Source: Octopus vulgaris (lineage: Eukaryota). From it: 64,000 bases of DNA. The stretch covers positions 100,440,001 through 100,504,000 of the forward strand of contig OX597822.1 in the NCBI GenBank assembly GCA_951406725.2. Direction: 5' to 3'. Positions 221 to 60,461 of this stretch are shown here, one piece after another; the stretch's first letter is position 1; every line of letters begins with the position of its first letter. The notes under the pieces are model-generated. The model saw only the letters and a list, made by a program, of their open reading frames with translations. It had not been told where the DNA came from and searched no databases. The translations under genes and the position numbers were made by a program.

Positions 221-2629
221 TTGGAAGCCGAGGTGAAAGTTAAAAATTTCAAAACCATTCGTGCTGATCGTGTTGGCAGAAGAAAGGGTGGGACTGCCAT
301 TTATGTCCATGATTCATTCTCAACAGAAGCCATGAACATATTTTCGAATGGATACTGCGAAGCAGTCGCTGTATTCAGTCAAACCAACAACTTAACAGTA
401 GTTGGGCTCTACAGACCACCCCAAACGCCCCTACCATGCTTCAAGGAATGCCTCAACAGCATAAAGTGTTTCATTCAGCAGTGTCAACCTGACAACATTT
501 TAATGATGGGAGATTTCAACCTTCCCGGGGTTGACTGGTCTACAAACAGTCTGCCGCCAGGTTCTTCTCTCTCAACCCCTGACAGGGAGGCAGTGGAATC
601 GCTTCTTGACTTCATGGATGACTTCTTCTTGTCCCAACTGGTACTCGAACCAACGAGATGTCACAAAAACGTCTTAGACTTAATTTTCAGCAATCACACT
701 GATACTATCCACAATATTGCAGTGGAGAAAACCCTACTCTCCGACCATGACATGGTTCTCTGTGATCTGAGATTTCACTGGCCAAAATGCAAAACAAATG
801 TCATCCCTCCTGTTCATCCATTTGACACTATGGATTTCCACAATGCAAACTGGGAAGCGATCAATAATGATCTTGCACAAGTCGATTGGTCCTTCACGCA
901 CACATACACACCCACTAACATCAAAAAGTCCTGGCAGTCACTTGTAGACACCATCACGAACATATGTGCAAGACACACCCCATTAAGATCTGCAAACAAA
1001 TCTAAGTGTCGAATCCCTAGAAATAGAAAATCTCTCATAAGGAAAATTAAAAGAATCAACAAAAAGATCAACATGCTGAAATACTGTCAACAGCAACACA
1101 CCAACCTGACTGCCATCTCGTCGCTAGAGATTAAAAAACATAAACTCCAAAACAACATGATGTCTATCATCAATAGTCAGCGAAGAGCTGAAGAGGCCTG
1201 GGCCATTGAGAAGATCAAACTCAATCCCAAAGTGTTCTTTTCATTTGCAAAAAAACACAGAGTCACTGGTTCTACTGTTGGCCCTCTGATTGATGAAAAT
1301 GGTATTCTTCAAGACAATGCCAAAACCATGGGAGAAATATTGCAGAAACAATATTGCTCTGTTTTCAGCAATCCTGATATGACTGATCTGGGCTGTATCA
1401 GTGATGTTACTCCCCAATACACTTTATCGGACATAACATTTGGCGCTCCTGATGTCTTAGCAGCAATAAAGGAAATGAAGCATAATTCAGCAGTAGGTCC
1501 CGATAGGTTCCCTGCTTGTGTCTTGAAGATGTGTCAAAACCAACTTGCACCCCCTCTAGCCAATCTGTGGCGGAACTCATTGGATGCTGGATATATACCA
1601 GAAGACCTTCTATCCCAGTCTGTTGTCCCAGTTTTCAAAAAAGGAAACAAATCGCTTGCCGTGAATTACCGTCCAATCTCACTCACCTCTCATATCATCA
1701 AGGTATTTGAGAGGGTGCTGAGATCGCGTATGACTCACTTCCTTGAGAGTCATAATATGCTGAACCCCAACCAGCATGGATTCCGTAATGTGAGAGATTG
1801 CCTGACGCAGCTACTGCATCATTTTGATGACATTTTGAGAGCCTTGGGAGAGGGTTCCAACACTGATGTCATCTACCTTGATTTCAGCAAGGCCTTTGAC
1901 AGGGTTGATCATAAGATCCTTCTGAGAAAGCTGTCCAATATTGGTGTCACTGGAAAGCTGCTGCAATGGATCAAGTGCTTCCTCTCTAACAGAACCCAAC
2001 ATGTTGTAGTCGAAGGAGTCAAATCCAGCCCAGCCAAAGTCAGCAGTGGTGTCCCACAAGGCACTGTGTTGGGCCCACTTCTCTTCATCATCTACATAAA
2101 TGATATTAGTGACACCATCAAACACAGCAACATCAGAACCTTCGCTGATGATTCCAAGCTCCAGAAGGTCATCAATGGCGTGGATGACCGAATAAACCTT
2201 CAGTCAGACCTACTGGCTGTTGTCCAATGGGCGGAAAAGAATAACATGTTGCTAAATGAAGACAAATTCGAACTGATCCACTTTGGAAGGGAGGACGCTC
2301 TGAAACTCCCATACTCTCTTCCTTCTGGAGAAATTCTCATGGCATCCAACAACATCAGAGACCTGGGAGTAACAGTGGACAACAACATAAGCTGGGCTAC
2401 ACATATAAGCAGCAAAGTTGACATGGCCCGCAGAATGTGTTCCTGGATTCTCAGAACCTTCCAGTCGAGAGATTCCCACGCTATTATCCTTCTCTTCTCC
2501 ACTTTTGCCCGACCCCACCTTGAATACTGCTGTCCACTGTGGTCTCCCTACACAAAACAAAATATTATGAGAATTGAAGCTCCCCAAAGGTCAATCACAA
2601 AAAAGACCTTGACTACTGGGGTAGACTAG
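221..2629 (+). CDS. LINE ORF2 (APE-RT), main uninterrupted part
   Basis: 802-aa ORF with full APE and RT motif sets; ends at a frameshift near 2605. Confidence 0.9.
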   Translation: MEAEVKVKNFKTIRADRVGRRKGGTAIYVHDSFSTEAMNIFSNGYCEAVAVFSQTNNLTVVGLYRPPQTPLPCFKECLNSIKCFIQQCQPDNILMMGDFNLPGVDWSTNSLPPGSSLSTPDREAVESLLDFMDDFFLSQLVLEPTRCHKNVLDLIFSNHTDTIHNIAVEKTLLSDHDMVLCDLRFHWPKCKTNVIPPVHPFDTMDFHNANWEAINNDLAQVDWSFTHTYTPTNIKKSWQSLVDTITNICARHTPLRSANKSKCRIPRNRKSLIRKIKRINKKINMLKYCQQQHTNLTAISSLEIKKHKLQNNMMSIINSQRRAEEAWAIEKIKLNPKVFFSFAKKHRVTGSTVGPLIDENGILQDNAKTMGEILQKQYCSVFSNPDMTDLGCISDVTPQYTLSDITFGAPDVLAAIKEMKHNSAVGPDRFPACVLKMCQNQLAPPLANLWRNSLDAGYIPEDLLSQSVVPVFKKGNKSLAVNYRPISLTSHIIKVFERVLRSRMTHFLESHNMLNPNQHGFRNVRDCLTQLLHHFDDILRALGEGSNTDVIYLDFSKAFDRVDHKILLRKLSNIGVTGKLLQWIKCFLSNRTQHVVVEGVKSSPAKVSSGVPQGTVLGPLLFIIYINDISDTIKHSNIRTFADDSKLQKVINGVDDRINLQSDLLAVVQWAEKNNMLLNEDKFELIHFGREDALKLPYSLPSGEILMASNNIRDLGVTVDNNISWATHISSKVDMARRMCSWILRTFQSRDSHAIILLFSTFARPHLEYCCPLWSPYTKQNIMRIEAPQRSITKKTLTTGVD

Positions 2630-3012
2630 AGAAGCTGAAATTGTATTCACTCCAACGACGCCGTGAACGCTACATTATCTGTATGATGTGGAAAATATTC
2701 CATCAGCACTGTCCGAATGATGTTGGCATCACCTTCAAAATGCATCCAAGGCTTGGACCACGTGCCATCCGTCCACAACAAAAATCTAAATCGCATCACA
2801 TAACGACAATACGGCACAACTATTTCACCTCAATTGGACCCGCTCTCTTCAACATTACACCAGGACACGTCAAAAAAGAAACTGACCACACAAAATTCAA
2901 GAAGTCTTTGGACAAATTCCTTCAAACAGTACCGGACAAACCATCCACACCCGGATATGTCTCCGCAAACAATAACTCTCTGCTCGAATGGGCCTTGGTG
3001 CCCAAATCCTGA
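2605..3012 (+). pseudogene. Frameshifted C-terminus of the same ORF2
   Basis: DLDYWGRLEKLKLYSLQRRRERY continues in another frame. Confidence 0.85.
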
Positions 3013-11629: not shown

Positions 11630-11709
11630 TTCAGGTCACTGCTTGGAATGAAACTCGGAATGGGGTTAGTAACCCGCGCTCTTAACCACTATGCTATATG
11701 CCCGTCGGC

Positions 11710-11710
<1 letters not shown>
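11630..11710 (-). mobile_element. tRNA-like Pol III head of a SINE-like element
   Basis: Minus strand reads GCATAGTGGTTAAGAGCGCGGG...GAGTTTCATTCC (A box and degenerate B box). Confidence 0.7.
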
Positions 11711-11791
<81 letters not shown>

Positions 11792-11805
11792 TGATGATGA
11801 TGATG

Positions 11806-11870
<65 letters not shown>

Positions 11871-13618
11871 TTATATGGATGATTTAAAACTCTTTGCAAA
11901 AAATGACCAACAACTCAAGGGCTTACTAGCGATTCTTAAACAATTCAGTGATGACATCAGAATGCAATTTGGCCTCGATAAATGTGCGAAAGCTACCTTT
12001 ATCAAAGGAAAAATGACAGAAACATCTAACGTTAACCTTGACCAGCAGAATGTCATAAAAGAATTAGACCCAGCGGAGAGCTACAAGTACCTAGGGGTAA
12101 TTGAAGGGGACGGAATAAGGCATTCAGTGATGAAGGAAAGGATCAGGAGAGAATGTTATCGCAGAGTAAGAGCAATACTCAAGACAGAGCTGAATGCGAG
12201 AAACAGGATCGAAGCAATCGATGCTTTAGCCATACCAGTCGTGACTTACAGTTTCAATATCGTTAACTGGTCAATTACTGAAATATGTAATCTTGACAGA
12301 AAAATACGAAAACTGTCGACAATGCATAGAATGCCCCACCCTAAGGCAGATATAGAACGATTTTTCTGCCAAGAAAAGAGGTAGGCCGTAGACTTTTACA
12401 ACTGGCAATAACAATGAAGATTGCTACAATTGGCCTAGACACCTACCTGAAAAACTCTGAGGACTGAATGTTAAAACTTGTCTCAAAACATGAAACAAGA
12501 AAGCATCATACTCAGTAACAAAACAGGCAAAGGACTATCTAAGTGAATTCCGAATACAACAAATTTCGGAATTAGACATACAAGAAACAAGCACAGAAAA
12601 AGCTAAACGCATGAAAACCCGTGCTAAAACTGCTGCCTTAGATATTCTGAATGATAAATGGCAAGAAAAACCTCTCTATGGCAAATACCCAAAGAGAGCG
12701 AATAATGCAGATGTTGACAAAGTCCTGACCCATCAATGGCTAATGGCCTCTGGCTTAAAATCTGAAACAAGGGTTTATCATAGCAGCTCAAAATCAATGC
12801 CTACCAACAAGGAACTACCAGGCCAACATATTAAAGAACGGCAGTAGCCCAACATGTCGTGTATGTCAACAGCAAAATGAAACCATTGATCATGTTGTCT
12901 CCAAGTGCAGTCTTCTAGCGCCTACAGAGTATCTCAACAGGCATAATAGAGCTGCACAATATATTCACTGGGTAATTTTCAAAAACCTGGATTAGCCCCA
13001 TGAAAAAAACTGGTGGGAACACAAACCACCTCCAGTACTTGAAAATGACCACATCTTACTCCTCTGTAACTTCCCCATTCAAACTGATAGAAAGATAGAT
13101 GCAAATAGGCCAGACATCATATTGGAAGACTTCAAACAAAGAGCATGCCTCCTCATTGATATGACTGTCCCAATCGATATAAATGTATCTGTCAAGACGT
13201 ACCAAAAACTGGGCAAATATAAAAATCTGGAAATAGAAATCAGCAAAATGTGGAACCTGAAGACTAAAACAATACCTGTTGTCATAGGTGCCCTGGGAAT
13301 GATAGCAAAAGGGGCTGATCGCTACCTAACTCAGATACCAGGAAACCCCAAAATGGCAGAAATTCAAAAGATAGTGCTCATGGGAACTGCTCATATCCTA
13401 CGCAAAATACTTTCTATGTAATCTCAAGTTTTAAAACAAACATAATTTAAAAAAAAATTTTTTTTTAGACATTCACTAGTACAACACTAAATACAAAACC
13501 AAATATATGGCACACTAGGCATAACAACAACACGAACTTCCAACCTGTTGTCTCTTGAGGTCTCTGGGTGAGACTTGGAGCCAACTTGTACAAATATAAA
13601 GCAAAAGTTAAACATAGA
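11871..13618 (+). mobile_element. 5'-truncated Dong/R4-clade non-LTR retrotransposon (RT, CCHC, restriction-like endonuclease), disrupted
   Basis: YMDDLKLF, YKYLG, CRVC...ETIDHVVSKC, RHN, NRPDI...LIDMTVP. (TAA)n on both sides. Confidence 0.9.
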
Positions 13619-18779: not shown

Positions 18780-19935
18780 CTAGCAGTAGTAACCGGAGTT
18801 GCACGGGTCTTAATAAATTACCATGAAACTGCGGAAACATGAGGCCTTACACTTGAGAAAAGACGGTTTGGGGCGTGAGATTGTTAAAGCAATAACCTTG
18901 GTAACCTCTTGAATAAAATCAATACCCAAGCTGTCCTTCAAGAAGTTATATTCTTGCGCTGTTTACGGTTCCTGTGTACAAGTGCTTTCAGGTGAAGCCG
19001 GGCCAAATCGCTGAACCACCAGAACGATTCGATTGAAATTTCAGATATGCATTAGGTATGCTCTAAGGCATATTTTAGTCATAACAACTGCTTCAATCAA
19101 TGTTCGGCTTTCGCAAAAACTTGATCGATAATTATCGATTTTTTCAAAAAAGTCGTCCGATTTCAACCAAACTCGGTACACAGTTGCAGTTTGACCCAAA
19201 GAGTTTCATGGCATCGCGGTACTCAGCGGATGACCGGAAGACTGAAACTGAACTACAGAAGAACAATGAATTGTTTCCAGGCCAGCATGCGAACGACCGT
19301 CATGACCTCCTAGCGCGAGTCATCCGGTTGAAGCTTATCAAACTTAAGGAAGGGTAAATATTTGGCCCCGTTAGATGTGATACGTATACTGTTGAATGGC
19401 AAAAGAGAGGCCTACCACACGCTCACATTCTAATCTGGCTCTCCGTAAAAATACCCTCCAACGATATTGACAAGATTATCTCTGCCGAGATTCCAAACCC
19501 ATCTACTGACAGACATCTCTTTGAGATAGTCAAGGCCACCATGATCCAGGGACCATGTGGGCGCGGATTCAATTTAGGCTCCCCTTGCTTGAGCAACAAT
19601 TTTTGCTGTAAGAAGTTTCCAAAAAAATTTCTGAAGGAAACACAAACTGGCGTAGATGGATACCCTCAGTACAGTCGGCGCCAACCTGCAGGCGGTAGAT
19701 TTGCCCTGAAAACTTGACAACATGACGTTGACAACAGATGCGTTGTACCGTATTCACCGCTTCTTTCGAAGACGTTCGGTGCCCACATCAACGTGGAGTT
19801 TTGCCGTTCCATCAAGTCCATTAACCACGGCCAGCTGTACATTGCATGCTCCAGAGTCGGCAGTAGAGACAGACTGTTCCCATTAACACGTCGGGGGAAG
19901 ACAAGAAGCATTGTCTACAACAAAGTGCTACGTAT
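18780..19935. mobile_element. Internally deleted Helitron (Rep and helicase C-terminal remnants)
   Basis: EWQKRGLPHAHILIW (19394), ISAEIP, VVPYSPLL, HINVE, then HGQLYIACSRV. Hairpin+CTAG terminus on the minus strand at 18780. Confidence 0.9.
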
Positions 19936-25529: not shown

Positions 25530-26065
25530 TATATATATATATAAAGCAGAGTTTGTGTGTGTGCGAGCGCGCGTATGTTCCTTACACATTCGAAAACTTT
25601 TGTCACTTTCACCTGCAATCCTAAATGGGAGGAAATAAAATCTAACTTTCTTCCAGCGTCACATCTTCTGGTATTGCAGCTATCCTCCTCAATGGGGGAA
25701 GAGCTGCCCATTCCGTGTTCAAGCTTCCTCTAAACCTTGTAACGAGAGAATCTCAAATGTGTAACATTTCCCAAAACTCTGCAATGGCAACAGTTCTCCA
25801 ACAAACTTGCCTCGTTGTTTGGGATGAGTGCACTTTGTCACTTCAAGGAGCTCCAGAGGTACTTGACCGAACCCTCCAGGACAAAAAACTATCGCACGCT
25901 CATGAGAAGAGTAACAGTTCTTCTTGCAGGAAATTTTCGTCAAACGTTGCCAGTTATCCCCAAAGAATCAAAAGCTGACGAGGTCAATGCAATGCATGCT
26001 TACAAAAATCGTACCTTTGGAGACATGAAAAAACTTCATCGTACAAGCAACATGAGAGTACTTCT
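25530..26065 (+). mobile_element. Helitron fragment (Rep motif joined to PIF1-like helicase motifs)
   Basis: TFTCNPKWEEIK, SSGIAA, AHSVFKLPL, VVWDEC, GNFRQTLPV. Confidence 0.9.
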
Positions 26066-26338
26066 AAGACACACGCAAACACATACATATACATACGGAT
26101 GATTTCTTTCAGTTTATGTTTACCAAACTCACCCACAAGGCTTTGGTCGGTCCGAGGCTATAGGAGAAGACACTTGGCCACGGTGTCACGCAGTTGGATT
26201 GCTCTCGGAATCATGTGCATGGGAAGCAAGCTCCTTTTCCCGACCACATAGTTTCGGGTTCAATCCCGCTACATGGCACCTTGGCCAAGTGTCTTCTGTA
26301 TATTTTATCACAGATGATGATTGCAAAATATCTTAAAG

Positions 26339-26838: not shown

Positions 26839-27273
26839 AGGCGGCGAGCTGGCAGAAACGTTAGGACGCTGGGCGAAATGCTTAGCGGTATTTCGTCTGC
26901 CGTTACATTCTGAGTTCAAATTCCGCTGAGGTCGACTTTGCCTTTCATCCTTTCGGGGTCGATTAAATAAGTACCAGTTACGCACTGGGGCCGATGTAAT
27001 CGAATTAATCCGCCTGTCTGTCCTTGTTTGTCCTCTCTGTGTTTAGCCCCTTGTGGGTAGTAAAGAAATATATTTAAGTAAAGAAATAGGTATTTCGTCT
27101 GCCGTTACGTTCTGAGTTCAAATTCCGCCGGGACGACTTTACCTTTCATCCTTTCGGGGTCGATTAAATAAGTACCAGTTACGCACTGGGGTCGATATAA
27201 TCGACTTAATCCCTTTGTCTGTCCTTGTTTGTCCTCTCTATGTTTAGCCCCTTGTGGGTAGTAAAGAAATATG
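26839..27273 (+). mobile_element. SINE family 3 dimer with a 44-bp TSD
   Basis: Flanks 26795-26838 and 27274-27317 are duplicated. Confidence 0.9.
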
Positions 27274-42945: not shown

Positions 42946-44330
42946 CAGTGTTTCCCAAACTTTTCGCACCGAATTGCAATATCGCCCACCTATCGGCCAA
43001 AAAATGCTCCATCGCTCACCTGTGTAAAAAAAAAAAGACCTTGACACAACCCCCCCACCAACACAAAATCCCCTAAGAGCCCCCCTGTATCATTTGACAC
43101 ACACACTACATTGTTGCCCTGTTGGTGCCGTTTGGACCAACGGGTGTTTACAAATCCTTTATTATGGGTTTAGTTTTGCCATTAGTGTCAATAAAATTCT
43201 AGCGTTAACTCTATATTATGCAGACAGATTAACTTCTGGAAACTTGCGCTTTCTTTTACACTGATTTTCATTTTCCCCAAATGAACCATTGATCAGAACT
43301 ACCGATGCAAAAATAATTAATGATTGTATTACAAAGGAAAAGAATACAACCTTTTAATGAGAACCATGTGTCTGGTGCGATGCAGCTAGTTGCCGATACA
43401 TACGGTTTCAAACTTGTCAACTTTAGCCGCATGTCTCCTCGTTGTATCACATCCAGTCCAATTTTTTTATGGGAAAGTTCCAACATGGTTAAAACCAGAT
43501 TCAACTAGGTATGAAGTAGGGAAGGCAAGCAAAAGTAATTTCAGATTGAGGTAGGAATTCAATAAACTCTGATGGTATCACAAACCTTCTTCACCATTAC
43601 GGTGTAATCGCATTGTGGCGTCATTGCCAATTTGTAATTCTATCAATTCCTCCTGAACATCATACTCGCAATGACTGCATCGACCTCAAACGGATTGCTA
43701 TACCAATTTGGAATATTCAGCGCAACAACATCTTCAAATCACTCCATGTTATCGTGCAGTGGTTGTATATAGTTGCGATATGCAGTTAAATCCTCATCAA
43801 TCAATTCATCTTTCAAAGAATCAAGTTCTGGAAGTTAATAGAATTGACGTTTTGAAATGTTAGTCTTAAACAACACCAATTTCGAAATGAAGGTAGTGAT
43901 TAATGATTTACAATCAACGAGAGTTTTACTGTTCCCTTGCAATAATCTATTCAAATAATTTAATTTTATGAATACATCACAAATAAAAAAGATATCACTT
44001 CTTGCAGCCATCAATGAGGCGGATAGTGGAATATTTTCAAAGAAAAAGATATTATATAAAACAGTTGAACAAAATGTAAAACACAGTTTCCATTTGACAG
44101 CCACCGCACTTGGTATGGTATAAGAGTTTAGTATGACCCTCATCATTTCTCAGACAGAGTTGACAGAAAATTCGATCAGACAAGGGACTGGACTTCAATT
44201 TGTTCACAGTCTTGATAACTAATTGTAGCGCATCATTCAATCTACTGTTTATATTTTTTGTCAATAAATGCTGCCGGTGTGTCAAGCAATGAACAGTTAG
44301 TATCTGGTGGGAAATTTCACGCAAAATAGG
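42946..44330 (-). mobile_element. hAT (Charlie/Buster, ZBED5/8-like) transposon 3' remnant
   Basis: TIR CAGTGTTTCCCAAAC; minus-strand VHCLTHRQHL, LLYHT, LNRLLQG, PTSYLVESGF and RGDMRLKLT. Confidence 0.85.
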
Positions 44331-44334
44331 AGGA

Positions 44335-44672
44335 GGAGACCTCCTTCGGTCATGAATTACCATGGGGCTGCACCTAGAAAGTTACCCTCCGAGGCACAAA
44401 TCAGGGCAAGATTGTTTGTGGAAGGCTAGCAGTCACCCATGCATACCAGCCTCCTCTCTCCATGCCACCGATGTTATCCAAGGGAAAGGCAAATGCCAAT
44501 ACAGCTTGGCACCAGTGATGTCGCAACTCATTTCTACAGCTGAGTGAACTGGAGCAACGTGAAATAAAGTGTCTTGCTCAAGAACACAACACGTAGTCCG
44601 GTCCGGGAATCGAATTCACAATCTCACGATCGTAAACTCTGCGCTCTAACCTCTGAGCCATGCGCTTTCACA
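44335..44672 (-). mobile_element. tRNA-derived SINE (TTGAGCAAGACACT type)
   Basis: Head with GTTAGAGCG and TTCGATTCC; homology to 8935-9060. Confidence 0.8.
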
Positions 44673-45422
44673 GTCCGCAATGCCAGAAAAATCCGCGATG
44701 TACTGAGAGCGCGATAGGTGAATCGTGATATGGCGAGTGGTTACTGTATGTCAGCCTCTCGTTCCGTTTTCGACAGGATTTCTGGACACCTTTTAAGTTT
44801 CTGTAAATAGAAACTTGTTAGCATTACCATGTCAGTATTATGTCATCTTGACACCATTAGGCTTTCTAAAGTCAGCCGTCGCAATATGATAATGCTTTTA
44901 TCAAATCTTGATATTATTTAATATTTTGATAACAAGATGATTATTTTACAGAACCTTGATCTGCGTAACAAAATGCTGATTAAAAACAAGAAGAACAAAA
45001 ACAAAAACATTTTGCTAGTTTATTTCTTATAACTGATTAATCTGCAGCCGTTCGGATGAGAAAGCGACAGCGCGCCCGCATGCGTGAGAAGCAGAAGTAT
45101 AGAAAAAAGAGAAGAGAGGAAGAGATAGAGAAGAGAGACAAGAAGAGAGAGAGAGGAGGAGAGAGATGGAGGAAGAGAGGGTTGGAAGAAAAGTGAGAGC
45201 AAGACTAGGAGTGCTTGTGTGTTAGTCTATGAGTGTATGTGTGTGTGTTTGCGTGTGTTTAACGCATCAGGTGAGCTGGCTAAAATGAAAGAACAACAAC
45301 AACAAAAAAACACAAACAAACACACATTTGGTTTTACTTTATCTGAGATTAATATTTTGTGTTCACTGAGGTATGTAATCCATTGGACGGATTTACTACT
45401 CACCGATACACGTCGGGTAATA

Positions 45423-45862
45423 CTACTATGGCAATTCCTCAAGGTCGAGGATGATGGTCTTCGCGCAAATTTATTGGTGAGTCCGCAGGTGACTGATAAG
45501 ACAAATTCTTGCTCGAAAAGATCGGTCGCAGTGCGGACATCAAGTGCCGGAAGGGAGAGTCGCACGTGGTTGTTGTTGTTGGCGCTCCTTCCGTCGTCTT
45601 CGTCTTTTCTCCTCCAGCTCTGCAGACCTTTTCGACTCGAAATTCGCCGTTCCCTCATGGATGGTGGTGGTTTTCCAGAGTGGTCTGTTTTTTGCCGTTT
45701 CCTCCCAGTTGGTGAAGTCAATGTCACACTTTTTGAGGTTCGATTTCAGGGAGTCCTTGTAGCGTTTCTTCTGGCCTCCTTTTGTACGCTTGCCGTCTTT
45801 GAGTTGGGAGTAGAAGATCTGTTTGAGAAGTCGTTCGTCAGTCATAGAATGACACACACATA

Positions 45863-45909
<47 letters not shown>

Positions 45910-46342
45910 TATCTATGGCAATCCCTCAAGGTCGAGGATGATGGTCTTCGCGCAAATTTATTGGTGAGTCCGCAGGTGACTGATAAGACCAATTCTTGCT
46001 CGATAAGATCGGTCACAGTGCGGACATCTAGTGCCGGAAGGGAGAGTCGCACGTGGTTGTTGTTGTTGGCGCTCCTTCCGTCGTCGTCGTCTTTTCTCCT
46101 CCAGCTCTGCAGACCTTTTCGACTCGAAATTCGCCGTTCCCTCATGGATGGATGGTGGTGGTTTTCCAGAGTGGTCTGTTTTTTTGCCGTTTCCTGGAGC
46201 GGCCACGTGGTTAGAATGACTGACGAACGACTTCCCAAACAGATCTTCTACTCCCAACTCAAAGACGGCAAGCGTACAAAAGGAGGCCAGAAGAAACGCT
46301 ACAAGGACTCCCTGAAATCGAACCTCAAAAAAAAAAAAAAAA
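45423..46342 (-). mobile_element. Chimeric RTE-clade insertion: two 3' ends plus an inverted piece inside one TSD
   Basis: [38 protein letters not shown]...GLISHLRTH; 13-bp TSD ACGTCGGGTAATA at 45410 and 46343. Confidence 0.9.
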
Positions 46343-47246
46343 ACGTCGGGTAATATGTTTTATCAAAAGACATGTAAAAGGCATTCATTATCATGTAGGT
46401 ACTCTATGTCTGTCTGTCTGTCTCTCTTTCTCTCACACATGCACACACACACTCATATTAAACAGAAATGGACCAAGAGAAATAACGCATGTGCACGAAC
46501 GGCATAAACATATACAGGTATAGCAAATACGGTACAACATAATTTTTTTATTTTACAATCATCGGAGTCCGAAGCGTTCCTCACGAACGCACGTTGGTGA
46601 GACGGTTGTGATATATAAACAGTTTCGAATAAGAACCGGAAAGCGAAGTATGAACATGCAATGTGCATGTGCACGCCGAACATAAAAATAAAAATGCAAT
46701 GCGCATGTCAAAGTAAAACGGAAGAGGAGAATAAAACAAATTATATGACAACACTATTAGTGAAGCTTTGCTGTAATTGTCTTGGTTATTTTTTTCATTT
46801 TTCGTTTATTAAAACCATCTTCGCATTTAGATGAGTCACAATTACCAAATGGCAATTAAGACCAGCTACATATGAGAAGGGGAGATAATCGCAAGAACCA
46901 AGCATTCTCTAGAGTTGGCAACGTGCCATTAAAGAGAAGAACAGTATTAAATGAAGTACCGAGAAGAGTATTTTATTTACTAAAAGAAACTTTGAAAGCT
47001 GTGCCCCAAGAATGACTGCAGTACTGAAACTGCTAAAAAATTTAAAAGAAAAACTGACCGATGCATAGCCGTCTTTGAAGCATTATAGGCCCCTGGACAA
47101 CTTAATACATTAGGTTCTATAGTAGTTATTTACTTGTAAGCAAGCCACAGCATACACAGACCAGAATTGAACCACTAGACCAGACTTGTGAGGCCCTTGG
47201 ACAACTGCTCAGCGTGCCCACGCTTTAAGACAGTATTAGACCCATG

Positions 47247-47666
47247 GAAGGCGGCGAGCTGGCAGAACCGTTAGCACGCCGGGCGAAATGCGTAGCCGTA
47301 TTTCGTCTGCCGTTATGTTCTGAGTTCAAATTCCGCCGAGGTCAGCTTTGCCTTTCATCCTTTCGGGGTCGATAAATTAAGTACCAGCTACGCACTGGGG
47401 TTGATGTAATCGACTTAATCCGTGTGTCTGTCCTTGTTTGTCCTCTCTGTATTTAGCCCCTTGGGGGTAGTAAAGAAATAGGTATTTCGTTCGTCTTTAC
47501 GTTCTGAGTTCATATTCCGCCGAGGTCAGCTTTGCCTTTCATCCTTTCGGGGTCGATAAATTAAGTACCAGTTACGCACTGGGGTCGATGTAATCGACTT
47601 AATCCGTGTGTCTGTCCTTGTTTGTCCTCTCTGTGTTTATCCCCTTGTGGGTAGTAAAGAAATAGG
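47247..47666 (+). mobile_element. SINE family 3 dimer
   Basis: TSD GTATTAGACCCATGG. Confidence 0.9.
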
Positions 47667-52193: not shown

Positions 52194-52195
52194 TT

Positions 52196-55100
52196 ATGTG
52201 CTCTCTTAACGAGATACCAAGCATTGACCTTTCCATGGCTCTTTGAGCCGTTATCAGTCTTTGCTCTTCTCTCTTTGTGGTAGCCCATGTTTCACTACCA
52301 TATAACATTGCAGGCAGAACTGCACTGTTAATGAGGTTGGCGCGGGTGGTCCTGTCCAACCTTCCCTTGAGCACATCCCTTATGCCATTGGACGCCTTCC
52401 ATCCGGCCCTTACTCTCCGTGAGATCTCCTTTTTGATATCCCGGCACATATTTACTTCCTGTCCCAGGTAGACATATTCTCTCACCTCCTCTATTTCATC
52501 ACTGCCGATCACCATTCGACCTGTTGGTACGTTGTCTGACCGCATGAACTTTGTTTTCATGCGGTTCATCTTGAGACCTACTGCAGAACTTTTGATGTCG
52601 AGCTCCGTCAGCATGGTCTGAAGCTGATCCAAGTTTTCAGCGATGAGTACGATGTCGTCAGCGAAACGGAGGTGAGTGAGGAGCTCGCCATTGATGTTGA
52701 CATCACCTTGCCATTCGATGCCTCTGATGATCTGTTCGAGACATGCAGTGAAAAGTTTTGGGGAGATTGTATCTCCTTGCTTCACTCCCTTCTCGACCGG
52801 CACTCGATGGGTGATGACAGTAGGGCTATGTCGGTGGTGCATCCGGAATTTACCTCTCTGAGCAGCTGCACATATTGCGCTTCGATACCTTGCCTCTGCA
52901 GCGAGTTCAGCACTGCGTTGGTTTCGACGCTATCGAAGGCCTTCTCATAATCTATAAACGCAACGCAAAGAGGCAGCTTGTACTCATTTGCTCGCTCAAG
53001 CAGTTGCGTTAGAGCAAATATATGGTCCATTGTGCTGTAGTTCTTCTGGAAGCCTGCTTGCTCCCTCGGTTGTTGTTCGTCGAGACGACGTGACAACCTG
53101 TTCAGAATTATCTTCGTGAACAGCTTGTACACGTGAGACAGCAGGCATATGGGTCGGTAGTTCTTTAGATCTTCTCTGTCGCCCTTCTTATACAGCAGGA
53201 TGGTATTTGACTCTTTCCACTGCGAGGGAATTCTTCCCTCGTCTAGATAGTGCGTAAATCGATCAGCGAGGATTTTCCAGAGCTGCTCACTGCCTGACTT
53301 TAGCACCTCCGATGTTATACCGTCTTTCCCTGGAGCCTTTCCATTTTTCATCGAGCCGATGGCTCTTTCAACCTCACTGACAAGGATAGGTGGCACGTTT
53401 TCTTCCTGTTGGAGTGGTGGTAACGGCTGGACATTTCTGGTAGACTTAAAGAGCTTGGTGTAGAAGTCTTCACAAACTTTTTCCATCTGGCTCTTCTCGT
53501 TGACCGGTATTCCATCTGTATTTTTCAGGGCCGTCACCTCCGATCTATATAGTACCATGTCCCTCTTGCATTTCTTGAGGCTCTTCTTTTCCTCTGCGGC
53601 CTTCAAGAGCTCCTCCATCCGGTATGCCTCAAAGTCTTTCTTTAGTTGCTGACGAATCACTCTGCTGAGAATGGAATATTCAAGGTGATCTTCAATAGTC
53701 CTCTTCATATTTTTCCTCTTCTCGAGTAACTTCGTAGTTTCTTCCGAGATTCTTCCCTTCTTTTCTTTTGGGCATACACCTTTAGCCTTCCTTAAACACT
53801 CCTTCAGTTTCCCTATCAGTGAGTTGTAGTCATCGTCTATGTCGTCTCCTTGGCACCAGTCTTCCTGCATGATGGCTTCCTGCAGCTTTGTCTCATTGTA
53901 GACTCGGACACGTTTTCCCTTCGACGCCAAATATAACGCCATCTTCTCCCTCTTCTCGTCGATGACGACCCTCGCCCTTACCAGACGATGATCACTGCCG
54001 GTGTTGAATGGCGTCACGACGGAGACGTCATGCAATATGCGTCGCTTATCAACCAGGATGTAGTCGATCTCGCTTCTGTGCCTAGAGTTTGGCGATATCC
54101 AAGTCCATCTCTTCCTCTCCCTCTTCCTGAATAGGCTGTTTCCGATGTAGAGCTGCCTCGCCTCTGCCATGGTAGCCAAACGTTCTCCTCTCTCGTTTCT
54201 CTCTCCCATGCCAAATCTCCCGACGTACTCCTCTCCTTGTCGTCCATGTCCAACCTTTGCGTTGAAGTCTCCCATTACGACAGTGTAAGTGGACTTCATA
54301 GCCAACTCTTTGTCTAGTTGTCGATAGAATTCTTCCACCTCGTCGTCGTCGCTGGCACTTGTGGGAGCATAGGTCTGGACAATCTTGAGGGTGGCCTTCC
54401 CTGAGAGGTTCACATTTAGTACACCAATCCGTGATGATATGAAGTGGCAAGAAGCGACCCTCGAAGCCCATTCCTTACTTACGATGAATCCGATACCTCC
54501 GACCGATCTAACACCTTCTGCTCTTCCTAATCTCACAATGTATCCATCTTGCCATCGTATACTCGCTTCCTTCTTCCAACGTGTCTCGCACAGCCCTAAC
54601 ACGTCGCACCTGATCTTCTTCCTCTCCTCCATTAGGTGCTTCAGTTCTTGCCACCCTGCCATAGACCTGCAGTTGTAGGGGCATATGGCAAGTTTAGTCC
54701 TGTTCCATGACGGCTTTCGGGAACCTGTGATCCTTAGCAGCCTCTCGCCGCTCGAGTTGCACTACGCCGTCATGGAGTGGCCCGATTGACGTGCAGGGTA
54801 CTGAGGCCCTTTTCCTTTTCTCTTCGTTCTTCGTGCTGTTTTAGCCATAAGATGACGCCATCTCACTGGCTGGGCGGGCAGGCCGGTATTTTGTTAGATG
54901 GCTGTTGACTCTTCAGGAGTTCATCCGCCCTTTGTTGGGTCTTATTTTTCCATCCCACAGGGAGTCCAACAGCACCCTCCTCACCAAGCGAACCTGGTGG
55001 GGTTGTCAGTTTAGTCGCCGACGTCCCGATAGTAACATCATCAGAAAGAAGTCCGGCGTGAGAAATGTCATCGCAGAGTATACACGCAGCAAGTATAGAT

Positions 55101-55338
55101 GGGCTGGACACGTCGCCCGGCTCACCGATAATCGGTGGACGCACGCAGTTGCCGAGTGGTACCCGCGTGAGCGGAAAAGACCACCCGGAAGACCTCCACG
55201 ACGGTAGAGTGACGATTTCAAGAGGACGATTGGGATCACGTGGATGAGAAAGGCGCGATCCAGAGAGAAGTGGACAGCGTGCTGTGACCAGCGGTGTCAA
55301 ATGGACGCCTGACGGACTGGTCGGTCAAAGTGATCAAA

Positions 55339-55342
<4 letters not shown>
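52196..55342. mobile_element. Near full-length RTE-clade LINE with its 5' 2.8 kb inverted, inserted in (TA)n
   Basis: Minus strand: 5'UTR, APE (LGLCETRW, YAPTS, GDFNAK, IDYIL, SDHR) and RT (FIDYEKAFD, GVKQGD, FADD) up to SLREHI. Plus strand 55031-55342 continues SNIIRKKSG...WAGHVAR to tail (TCAAAGTGA)2. Confidence 0.95.
52782..54662 (-). CDS. RTE ORF (APE + RT N-terminal part), frameshifted near 52810
   Basis: 626-aa ORF with the motifs above. Confidence 0.85.
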   Translation of the reverse strand: MAGWQELKHLMEERKKIRCDVLGLCETRWKKEASIRWQDGYIVRLGRAEGVRSVGGIGFIVSKEWASRVASCHFISSRIGVLNVNLSGKATLKIVQTYAPTSASDDDEVEEFYRQLDKELAMKSTYTVVMGDFNAKVGHGRQGEEYVGRFGMGERNERGERLATMAEARQLYIGNSLFRKRERKRWTWISPNSRHRSEIDYILVDKRRILHDVSVVTPFNTGSDHRLVRARVVIDEKREKMALYLASKGKRVRVYNETKLQEAIMQEDWCQGDDIDDDYNSLIGKLKECLRKAKGVCPKEKKGRISEETTKLLEKRKNMKRTIEDHLEYSILSRVIRQQLKKDFEAYRMEELLKAAEEKKSLKKCKRDMVLYRSEVTALKNTDGIPVNEKSQMEKVCEDFYTKLFKSTRNVQPLPPLQQEENVPPILVSEVERAIGSMKNGKAPGKDGITSEVLKSGSEQLWKILADRFTHYLDEGRIPSQWKESNTILLYKKGDREDLKNYRPICLLSHVYKLFTKIILNRLSRRLDEQQPREQAGFQKNYSTMDHIFALTQLLERANEYKLPLCVAFIDYEKAFDSVETNAVLNSLQRQGIEAQYVQLLREVNSGCTTDIALLSSPIECRSRRE

Positions 55343-59190: not shown

Positions 59191-60461
59191 TTAGGTTATC
59201 ACGAATGAAATTTGTAGTAAGGTATATGGTAAAATTTGACAGCTGCTTATTTTGCGCCATTATTACATTTTGACAATCTTCGTTTTTTGTTAGAAAGCTG
59301 ACACATCTATTTCTTTATTCTAACTCATTTTGGACTTTACAAAGTATTTATAAATCATTTTTGGCTATTTTTGTTTCGAGATGGATAAATCGGAAATTCA
59401 TACAGTTTTGAAATATGAGTTCTTTCTTGGAAATACAGCAACACAGACAGCTCGGAATATTAATGGAGTATTTCATTCTAATATTATTACACAGCAGACA
59501 ATATCAAATCGGTTTGCAAAATTTTTTCTGCTAACTTTGACTTCACAAATGAGCAACGCGATCGACCAGAAACAAAAGTGGATAATGACGAACTGAAAGC
59601 CACCGTCGAGTCAGATCCATCTCAAAGTGTCCGTGAATTATCGTTGTTGTTTGGTGTTAGCAAGTAAACAATATTGACTCACCTAGTTCAAATTGGTAAA
59701 GTGAAAAAGTCGGATAAGTGGGTTCCACAGGAACTCAATGAAAATCAGAAACAGCAACGTTTGGAAGCCTGCATTATGCTACTTTCTCATCGCAAAAATG
59801 AATCATTTTTGGATCGAATTGTAACATGTGATGAGAAATGGATCCAATACAACAACAGTAAACGTTCAGCACAATGGTTGGATAAAGACGAGCCTCCAAA
59901 ACAGAGTCCAAAAAACAAAATTCATCAATAGAAGCTGATGGTGTGTATTAGGTGGTGTGGTGCAGGTGTGATCCATAATGATTTCATTAAACCTGGCTCA
60001 TCAATCATGGCCGAAGTATACTGCAGCCAATATGACTAAATGATGCAGAAACTTACAAAAAAAAAGCAGCCTAGTTTAATCAACAGAGCCAATCCTATTT
60101 TATTGCAAGGCAACGCCAGACCGCACATTGCAAAAATGACATTGGCGAAACTACAGGAGTTGGAGTTGGAAGTTCTCCATCATCCACCATACTCACCTGA
60201 TCTTGCCCTCACTGACTACGACTTCTTCCAGAATTTGGATAACTTTTTGATAGGAAAAAAAATTAATTCCAACGATGTTGTAAAACAGGCCTTCCAAGAT
60301 TTTATTGACTCTAGATTGCCAGGCTTTTACAGTTCCGGGCAGGACAAGCTACCGCTGAAATGGCAAAAGTGTATTGACAATATGGGTGCATACTTTGATG
60401 AATAAAACTATTCCTTGTATTGAAATTTTTTTCTCTACAAATTTCATAGTTGACGACCTAA
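59191..60461 (+). mobile_element. Full-length mariner (DD34D) transposon, inactivated, inserted in a SINE
   Basis: TIRs TTAGGTT.TCA..ATGAAATTTGTAG; TA on both sides; WVPQEL, IVTCDEKW, NARPH, HPPYSPDL; stops and frameshifts. Confidence 0.95.

What the first reader, a model, noticed from the sequence alone, without database searches (positions are those of the whole stretch)
45410..46355. One RTE insertion recording both a template jump and twin priming
A single 13-bp TSD encloses 3' end #1 (45423-45850), a (CA)n tract, a non-identical 3' end #2 (45910-46195), and an inverted upstream piece (46198-46342). The inverted piece ends ~27 nt before the start of #2, at an A5 expanded to A17 beside the TSD. 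This matches the twin-priming model established for L1, plus a jump to a second RNA carrying a transduced (TG)n flank.
Basis: partly seen in the sequence, partly recalled or inferred. Interest (0 to 1): 0.7.

Follow-up and report, generated by a model that had tools for sequence, protein, structure and literature searches.

The report
Doubled, front-flipped RTE retrotransposon insertion
A dead jumping-gene fragment sits between one duplicated target sequence with its front piece flipped and its tail end present twice, likely because both cut DNA ends primed copying (twin priming) and possibly because the copying enzyme also hopped onto a second RNA; a second related element in the same window is flipped too, so this kind of accident may be common in this genome.

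Summary
The anatomy is real. One exact 13-bp TSD encloses two 3' ends of an RTE-type LINE (6 substitutions and 2 indels apart), an interrupted (TG)n tract and an inverted upstream piece. The inverted piece stops 26 nt before 3' end #2 begins, which is twin-priming geometry (about 85%). The target site carries the published RTE signature. The template jump is unproven (about 45%): read-through of an already doubled source locus fits as well. 'Non-identical' does not show two RNAs, because some differences are private to #1 and all three pieces share minority letters. New here: a 9-nt micro-inversion or snap-back hairpin at the 5' end of #1, and a second RTE-like LINE of another family in this window (52195-55342) that is also 5'-inverted. 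No genome was held. The one read-laying run showed the family but no locus junction and no empty allele. Each ingredient is known for L1 or R2; my searches found no paper on twin priming in RTE. The scan noted twin-primed RTE copies before in two other genomes (unchecked notes).

The parts
45410..45422 (.). TSD copy at the element's 3' side; its first two bases in element sense (TA) continue the (TAG)n tail
   Evidence: other family copies match up to 45421 with TAC repeats (table 7)
45423..45845 (-). 3' end #1: last 423 nt of an RTE-type LINE (ORF C-terminus with one premature stop, 3' UTR hairpin, TAG TAG tail)
   Evidence: 85% to P0001 residues 844-964
45841..45853 (.). Junction J1: 5-bp hairpin GTCAT-AGA-ATGAC; 45845-45853 also equals the element-sense 9-mer that spans #1's breakpoint (micro-inversion or snap-back)
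45852..45908 (-). Interrupted microsatellite (TG)18 TA (TG)3 TA (TG)4, origin unknown
45909..46195 (-). 3' end #2 (283 nt colinear, 45913-46195) with a stuttered tail ATAG-AT-ATAG
46195..46331 (+). Inverted upstream piece (137 nt), joined to #2 through one shared T; ends at the element's A5
   Evidence: (loose ends at 45845)
46327..46343 (+). A17 run (T run on the priming strand): element A5 expanded, last A shared with the TSD
46343..46355 (.). TSD copy at the element's 5' side, first base T in element sense
46365..46368 (-). T4 at positions -10 to -13 upstream of the TSD (RTE target signature)
   Evidence: signature from PMC6007223 passages

Best explanation
This is a 5'-truncated RTE-type LINE insertion with two 3' ends and an inverted front piece inside one 13-bp TSD, likely made in one event by twin priming plus a probable template jump. 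Inferred steps: (1) The endonuclease nicked about 10 bp downstream of a T4. The plus-strand end (...TAATA) paired by 2 nt with the (UAG)n tail and primed cDNA #1. (2) After 423 nt the cDNA end gained a few bases and folded back on itself, then moved by 2 nt of AC/GU pairing to the (UG)n 3' end of a sister RNA from the same or a close source, and copied (TG)n and 3' end #2. (3) After the second nick, the other end (...CGT) primed inside that RNA at an A5, slipped to a T run and copied 137 nt upstream. (4) The two cDNA ends were joined through one shared base, with 26 nt lost. Shown by the sequence: the parts, orientations, breakpoints and microhomologies. Inferred: order of events, number of RNAs, origin of (TG)n. 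The twin-priming part alone I put at about 0.85.
For: One exact TSD with the RTE target signature: T at P1, T4 at P-10 to -13, and TA shared with the tail (PMC6007223 passages). The 26-nt gap compares with a median 14.5-bp internal deletion in 66% of twin-primed L1 (bioRxiv 2024.08.27.596794 section 4); such closeness by chance is 2-12% depending on the assumed length range. All three pieces share minority letters: at 45474 #1 and #2 have T where 69-82% of family depth has C; both keep 3 nt at 45662 that 71-81% lack; at 45743 #1 and the inverted piece have A where 65-83% have T. This fits RNAs from one active sub-lineage. J1 is a perfect 5-bp hairpin; snap-back and head-to-tail template-jump products are described for R2 (PMC11371274 passages). 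Template switching is reported for RTE-like LINEs with U6 (PMC4476161 passages). A second RTE-like element in the window has the same inversion geometry.
Against: No read or contig spanned any junction of this locus, no strand-changing joint was listed, and no empty allele was seen. Flank 45367-45408 had zero depth in all 3 contig runs and the raw run laid 0 reads. Microhomology is only 1 nt at the 5' and inversion junctions, whereas 71% of L1 5'-inverted insertions have 2 nt or more at the 5' junction (PMC11702581 passages). The J1 insert also matches element-sense sequence over 9 nt (2 of 4096 random hexamers would), which is what a tiny twin-primed piece at an earlier genomic insertion behind (TG)n would leave. 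Snap-back leaves the loop AGA as a 1-in-64 coincidence. The #1/#2 differences need not mean two RNAs. The inverted piece and #1 start only 21 nt apart; this is unexplained, and no significant RNA structure lies there (z = +1.0).
Confidence: 0.45

Rival explanations
1. Read-through of an already doubled source: #1 had earlier inserted just behind the (TG)n tract after a source copy. One RNA running through element, (TG)n and #1 was then inserted here with ordinary twin priming. No jump occurred in this event.
For: J1 looks like a genomic 5' junction with a 7-9-nt twin-primed piece, 2-nt AC microhomology to the (TG)n end and a 5-nt duplication; 17% of twin-primed L1 have internal duplications. 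The tract is interrupted like a genomic microsatellite. Triple chimeras are explained both ways in PMC4476161 (passages).
Against: It needs a same-lineage copy within about 60 nt of an active source, which is rare a priori (my estimate, not measured). #1 and #2 share minority letters, which is expected less often for independent insertions.
Confidence: 0.25
2. DNA-level template switching during second-strand synthesis or repair: one RNA or cDNA was copied twice, and the (TG)n was copied from nearby genomic DNA rather than from a second RNA.
For: A (TG)n tract 96 nt from the TSD (minus strand, 46451) is preceded by ATATGAG, one gap from the insert's ATATAG; it ties for best among the 45 other tracts in the window. 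The inverted piece and #1 start 21 nt apart, as if bounded by one molecule. Locally templated pieces occur in L1 insertions (PMC11702581 section 7).
Against: The match is weak: rank 1-2 of 45, and two nearby tracts were candidates, so p is roughly 0.09. The local tract has 5 units, not 18, and CA rather than TA at the interruption.
Confidence: 0.12
3. Dual priming: the inverted piece came from a separate, prematurely polyadenylated RNA whose poly(A) was primed at the second nick, so the A17 is a real tail.
For: A17 directly at the TSD. One AAGAAA lies 30 nt before the run (that it is a weak poly(A) signal is recalled). Dual priming was proposed for L1 5' poly(T) loci (PMC2837659 passages).
Against: No AATAAA or ATTAAA in the piece. 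The 26-nt adjacency to #2 would be chance (2-12%). Family tails are (TAG)n and (CAT)n, not poly(A).
Confidence: 0.08
4. Two successive insertions at this very site: #2 with the inverted piece first, then #1 exactly between (TG)n and the TSD without a new duplication.
For: J1 resembles a genomic 5' junction.
Against: No second TSD. The T4 signature lies only beside the other TSD copy. It needs a blunt insertion at one exact base.
Confidence: 0.05
5. Assembly artefact (chimeric or fold-back read, or merged haplotypes).
For: No independent read support was obtained.
Against: Exact TSD with the RTE signature. #1 and #2 differ mostly by substitutions. Breakpoints make mechanistic sense.
Confidence: 0.05

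Closest known systems
Twin-primed (5'-inverted) human L1 insertions (model of Ostertag and Kazazian 2001, seen only as described in PMC2912911, PMC4245944 and bioRxiv 2024.08.27.596794)
   Same: One TSD of 10-20 bp; inverted segment's downstream end at the 5' TSD; short internal deletion; forward part longer than inverted part.
   Different: Element is RTE-type with a (TAG)n tail, not L1 with poly(A); only 1-nt microhomologies; an extra 3' end and a (TG)n tract lie inside the same TSD.
Two-RNA L1 insertions and 'twin priming and switching' (PMC11702581 section 7; bioRxiv 2024.08.27.596794 section 4)
   Same: Same-orientation pieces from two transcripts in one TSD, and inverted insertions with further cDNA pieces at the internal junction.
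   Different: Those are somatic or cultured-cell L1 events with a known empty site. Here both pieces are 3' ends of one family, in an assembled non-mammalian-type genome, and the empty site is not known. Their supplementary figures were not seen.
R2 template jumping and snap-back junctions (PMC11371274)
   Same: Head-to-tail copies of the 3' end; antisense self-copied bases at the cDNA 3' end.
   Different: R2 is site-specific with another endonuclease; here the donor is 5'-truncated and the acceptor end is a microsatellite.
L1 insertions with 5' poly(T) (PMC2837659)
   Same: A T run between the 5' TSD and element sequence, read as a twin- or dual-priming product.
   Different: There the T run copies the poly(A) tail; here it likely comes from an internal A5 by slippage.
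U6-RTE template-switch chimeras of Anolis (PMC4476161)
   Same: Template switching by an RTE-like enzyme.
   Different: Acceptor is U6 snRNA, with no inversion.

Membership tests
Twin-primed 5'-inverted LINE insertion | One TSD encloses forward and inverted parts | tested here: met
Twin-primed 5'-inverted LINE insertion | Inverted part's downstream end at the 5' TSD, its upstream end joined to the forward part | tested here: met
Twin-primed 5'-inverted LINE insertion | Breakpoints adjacent in element coordinates (short deletion or duplication) | tested here: met
   26-nt deletion; L1 median 14.5 bp
Twin-primed 5'-inverted LINE insertion | Microhomology at the 5' and inversion junctions | tested here: inconclusive
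   1 nt each, close to chance
Twin-primed 5'-inverted LINE insertion | Both parts from the same RNA molecule | tested here: inconclusive
   #2 and the inverted piece do not overlap; each shares minority letters with #1
Twin-primed 5'-inverted LINE insertion | Empty site with one copy of the TSD | tested here: inconclusive
   not seen, where the adjacent flank had zero depth
L1 clade | Poly(A) 3' tail and TTTT/A nick site | tested here: not met
   tail is (TAG)n; the TSD starts TATT after AAAACA
RTE clade LINE | One ORF of about 1000-1100 aa with AP endonuclease and RT | tested here: met
   closest relative P0001, 88% identical, has RVT_1 and Exo_endo_phos_2; most of the 120 listed relatives are about 1000-1100 aa on 3.3-5 kb contigs. 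Tested on relatives; this copy is truncated.
RTE clade LINE | Microsatellite-like 3' tail matching the first TSD base | tested here: met
   rule from PMC6007223
RTE clade LINE | TSD 7-15 bp, T run near P-10 | tested here: met
   13 bp, T4 at -10 to -13
RTE clade LINE | RT phylogeny groups with named RTE elements | not tested
   no listed relative carried an RTE name; no reference set was at hand
Template-jump chimera | Two RNA-derived pieces in the same orientation inside one TSD, acceptor joined at its 3' end | tested here: met
Template-jump chimera | Pieces come from two RNAs; no pre-existing composite source | not testable with these tools
   no genome held; uninformative
3' transduction | Flank traced to a source locus | tested here: inconclusive
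   no matching loose end among the 18 of 118 shown

The most novel reading that the evidence does not exclude
In this genome twin priming is a main outcome for RTE-type LINEs, not a rarity (2 of 2 RTE-type insertions in this window, from two families). This locus records three reverse-transcription runs on two sister RNAs in one event, including slippage of an internal A5 to a T run by an enzyme that does not use poly(A). That would end the view that 5' inversion is nearly an L1-in-human trait and give a host in which to test what controls it.
Probability: 0.3. Interest if true: 0.6.

Novelty: new variant of a known kind. Interest (0 to 1): 0.4.

Why it matters
Cell assays found 5' inversions almost only for human L1 in human cells and tied them to long TSDs and host factors (PMC4245944 passages). 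Two inverted RTE-type insertions of different families within 10 kb of each other suggest that the second nick precedes the end of first-strand synthesis for RTE too. A genome-wide count would test whether inversion rate follows TSD length or host. The doubled 3' end would add same-event template jumping, which is one route to chimeric SINEs and LINEs. As a single dead insertion it has no evident function.

Tried and rejected
No whole genome is held, so no family survey or source search was possible. Sequencing runs: 7 of 24 listed runs hold half or more of the words of 44300-47400. The shares cannot separate empty from filled alleles, because family copies supply the element's words. Reads were laid on 45262-45871 only (left flank, TSD, #1, J1), in 4 of the 24 runs. 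Three contig runs showed the family (271, 482 and 384 records). There were no joints, no listed record linking flank and element, zero depth at 45367-45408, and only 18 of 118 loose ends shown. The raw run laid 0 reads. This is no test of the locus either way. Metagenome search gave 66 loci at 37-73% protein identity, none of this family; 0 of 66 had RTE hits on both strands, but these are short contigs and no frequency estimate. Pfam found nothing in the C-terminal fragments. No significant RNA structure at the truncation points (z 0.2 to 1.0), so a structural stop is unsupported. A local origin of (TG)n is only weakly supported. A homologue search with the second element's forward piece found nothing; the profile-free HMMER search with its inverted part did. 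Literature: nine searches listed no paper that describes twin priming in an RTE or invertebrate LINE. The library lacks most subscription papers, including Ichiyanagi and Okada 2008 on RTE junctions, which I did not see. PMC5389967 had the terms only in its reference list; PMC12016303 and PMC7617806 passages added nothing specific.

Full report
Observation. The window is microsatellite-rich animal-type DNA. It looks like octopus to me from recalled repeat sequences; no call names the organism, and no whole genome is held. The 13-mer at 45410-45422 recurs exactly at 46343-46355 and nowhere else in the window; the chance of that at both ends of the insert is about 2-4e-6. Read on the minus strand (element sense) the order is: flank, TSD, T run, inverted piece (46195-46331), 3' end #2 (46195-45913), ATAT, (TG)18 TA (TG)3 TA (TG)4, a 6-nt insert, 3' end #1 (45845-45423), TAG TAG, TSD. 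#1 and #2 differ by 6 substitutions in 278 bases and two insertions in #2. The inverted piece differs from #1 at 1 of 116 shared bases. In element coordinates the inverted piece covers 1-137, #1 starts at 22 and #2 starts at 164, so 26 nt are missing between the inverted piece and #2.

What the element is. The frame of #1 is 88% identical to the C-terminus of P0001, a 964-aa protein with endonuclease and RT domains. Its relatives are mostly single ORFs of about 1000-1100 aa on contigs of 3.3-5 kb. In three contig runs the family is abundant and other copies end in (TAG)n or (CAT)n (table 7). The TSD is 13 bp, starts with T, shares TA with the tail, and has T4 at -10 to -13. This is the RTE signature described in PMC6007223 (passages). 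I therefore call it RTE-type by architecture; no tree against named RTE elements was built. An RTE is reported as transcribed in octopus brain (PMC9115989 passages); I could not compare sequences.

Twin priming. The inverted piece's downstream end touches the 5' TSD, and its upstream end joins #2. Loose ends at 45845 in runs X3 (4 contigs) and X4 (1 contig) give the family's upstream sequence and imply one shared T at the inversion junction and no extra bases. The 5' junction shares one A. In human tumours 66% of 5'-inverted L1 have an internal deletion, median 14.5 bp (bioRxiv 2024.08.27.596794, section 4 part 1). A gap of 26 nt or less arises by chance in 2-12% of cases depending on the length range assumed. 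Against it, the microhomologies are shorter than in most L1 cases (71% have 2 nt or more at the 5' junction; PMC11702581 passages). The A17 is best read as slippage on the A5, since the piece has no AATAAA or ATTAAA. Dual priming on a polyadenylated fragment (PMC2837659 passages) is not excluded.

A second case in the window. A different RTE-like LINE (28% to P0001 over the RT end) has its 5' 2.8 kb on the minus strand and its last 310 nt on the plus strand. With P0128 (56% identical), residues 3-791 map to 54557-52195 minus and residues 796-875 to 55040-55279 plus. All 12 relatives tried hit both strands, and in 7 of them the plus-strand alignment starts 2-7 residues after the minus-strand one ends; in the other 5 the alignments overlap by weak extension. 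Both ends abut (TA)n, so a TSD cannot be resolved. Of three LINE regions found with 145 long relatives, two are RTE-type and both are inverted; the third (350-2677) lies on one strand. Two cases give no rate, but they show the geometry is no one-off. PMC4245944 (passages) found inversions only for L1 in human cells and in one Nimb-2 insert, and did not assay RTE.

The doubled 3' end. This is the weak part of the claim. At 45503 and 45542, 98.9-100% of family depth has #2's letter, so these are private to #1; 45528 is a CpG-type site that varies in the family (24-48%). All three pieces share minority letters at 45474, 45662 and 45743, so they come from one sub-lineage and may have been near-identical at insertion. 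An identical TSD is expected with probability 0.79 at this divergence. These depth shares are sums over short contigs and are approximate.

The joint between #1 and (TG)n holds 6 extra bases. They make a perfect 5-bp hairpin, as in R2 snap-back (PMC11371274 passages), which would fit a cDNA end that then jumped to a (UG)n RNA end through 2 nt of pairing. The same bases also match the element's own sense strand over 9 nt at the breakpoint (2 of 4096 hexamers would). That fits a tiny twin-primed piece made when #1 inserted behind a genomic (TG)n, that is, a composite source later copied whole. I cannot separate the two. A third reading copies (TG)n from a tract 96 nt away; it ties for best of 45 tracts, which is weak. 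I give the jump 0.45, the composite source 0.25, local templating 0.12, dual priming 0.08, sequential insertion 0.05 and artefact 0.05. These odds are judgement, not computation.

Read evidence. One search listed 24 runs; I laid 4 of them on the left part of the locus only. No joint, no listed flank-to-element record and no empty allele appeared. The flank next to the TSD had zero depth in all three contig runs, the tool warns that filters leave holes, 100 of 118 loose ends were not shown, and the raw run laid nothing.

Comparison with what is known. It works like a twin-primed L1 insertion and, probably, like the two-RNA L1 insertions of PMC11702581 (section 7: nine such, and one inverted insertion with further RT pieces at its internal junction). 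It is not an L1. Template switching by RTE-like LINEs is reported with U6, and triple chimeras are explained by either double switching or two events (PMC4476161 passages). PMC2912911 was read as passages. Nine library searches showed no paper on twin priming in RTE. Subscription papers are missing, and I read no supplements; those of the two L1 long-read preprints may hold an L1 case of this same geometry. The scan's own notes describe twin-primed RTE copies in two other genomes and one in a dinoflagellate LINE. They are unchecked and are not used as support; look-ups by sequence, place and tandem wording found nothing.

Verdict. Real structure, twin priming likely, jump plausible but unproven. 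Every step has a precedent in L1 or R2; the host and clade are what is new. New variant of a known kind, interest 0.4.

Noticed in passing
window 52195-55342: Near-full-length RTE-like LINE of a second family with twin-priming geometry: 5' 2.8 kb on minus, last 310 nt on plus, about 4 codons or fewer missing at the break, tail (TCAAAGTGA)2, both ends in (TA)n so no TSD can be resolved.
   Followed up: yes
   Followed up: yes
P0003, P0004 against window 45540-45848: Mantis shrimp (Oratosquilla oratoria) proteins are about 90% identical to this element over the part compared or share P0001's cluster. This hints at horizontal transfer if the host is a mollusc; not tested.
   Followed up: no
loose ends at 45421 and 45428: The family has two tail types, (TAG)n and (CAT)n, in all three contig runs.
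   Followed up: partly
window 46435-46457: A (TG)n tract on the minus strand 96 nt from the TSD resembles the insert's ATATAG(TG)n start.
   Followed up: partly
window 350-2677 (+) and 11686-13421 (+): Two further decayed LINE-like regions; clades not determined. The first lies on one strand only.
   Followed up: no
window 19358-19717, 25646-26102, 60040-60405: ORF fragments resembling Helitron Rep/helicase (first two) and a mariner transposase (third); resemblance recalled, not tested.
   Followed up: no
window 26887-27272: 201-nt unit repeated 1.9 times at 93% identity, probably a tandem SINE (the SINE label is recalled).
   Followed up: no
run X22: A raw-read run with the same species label as X1 laid 0 reads even on this high-copy element, so its label or the filter may be off.
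   Followed up: no
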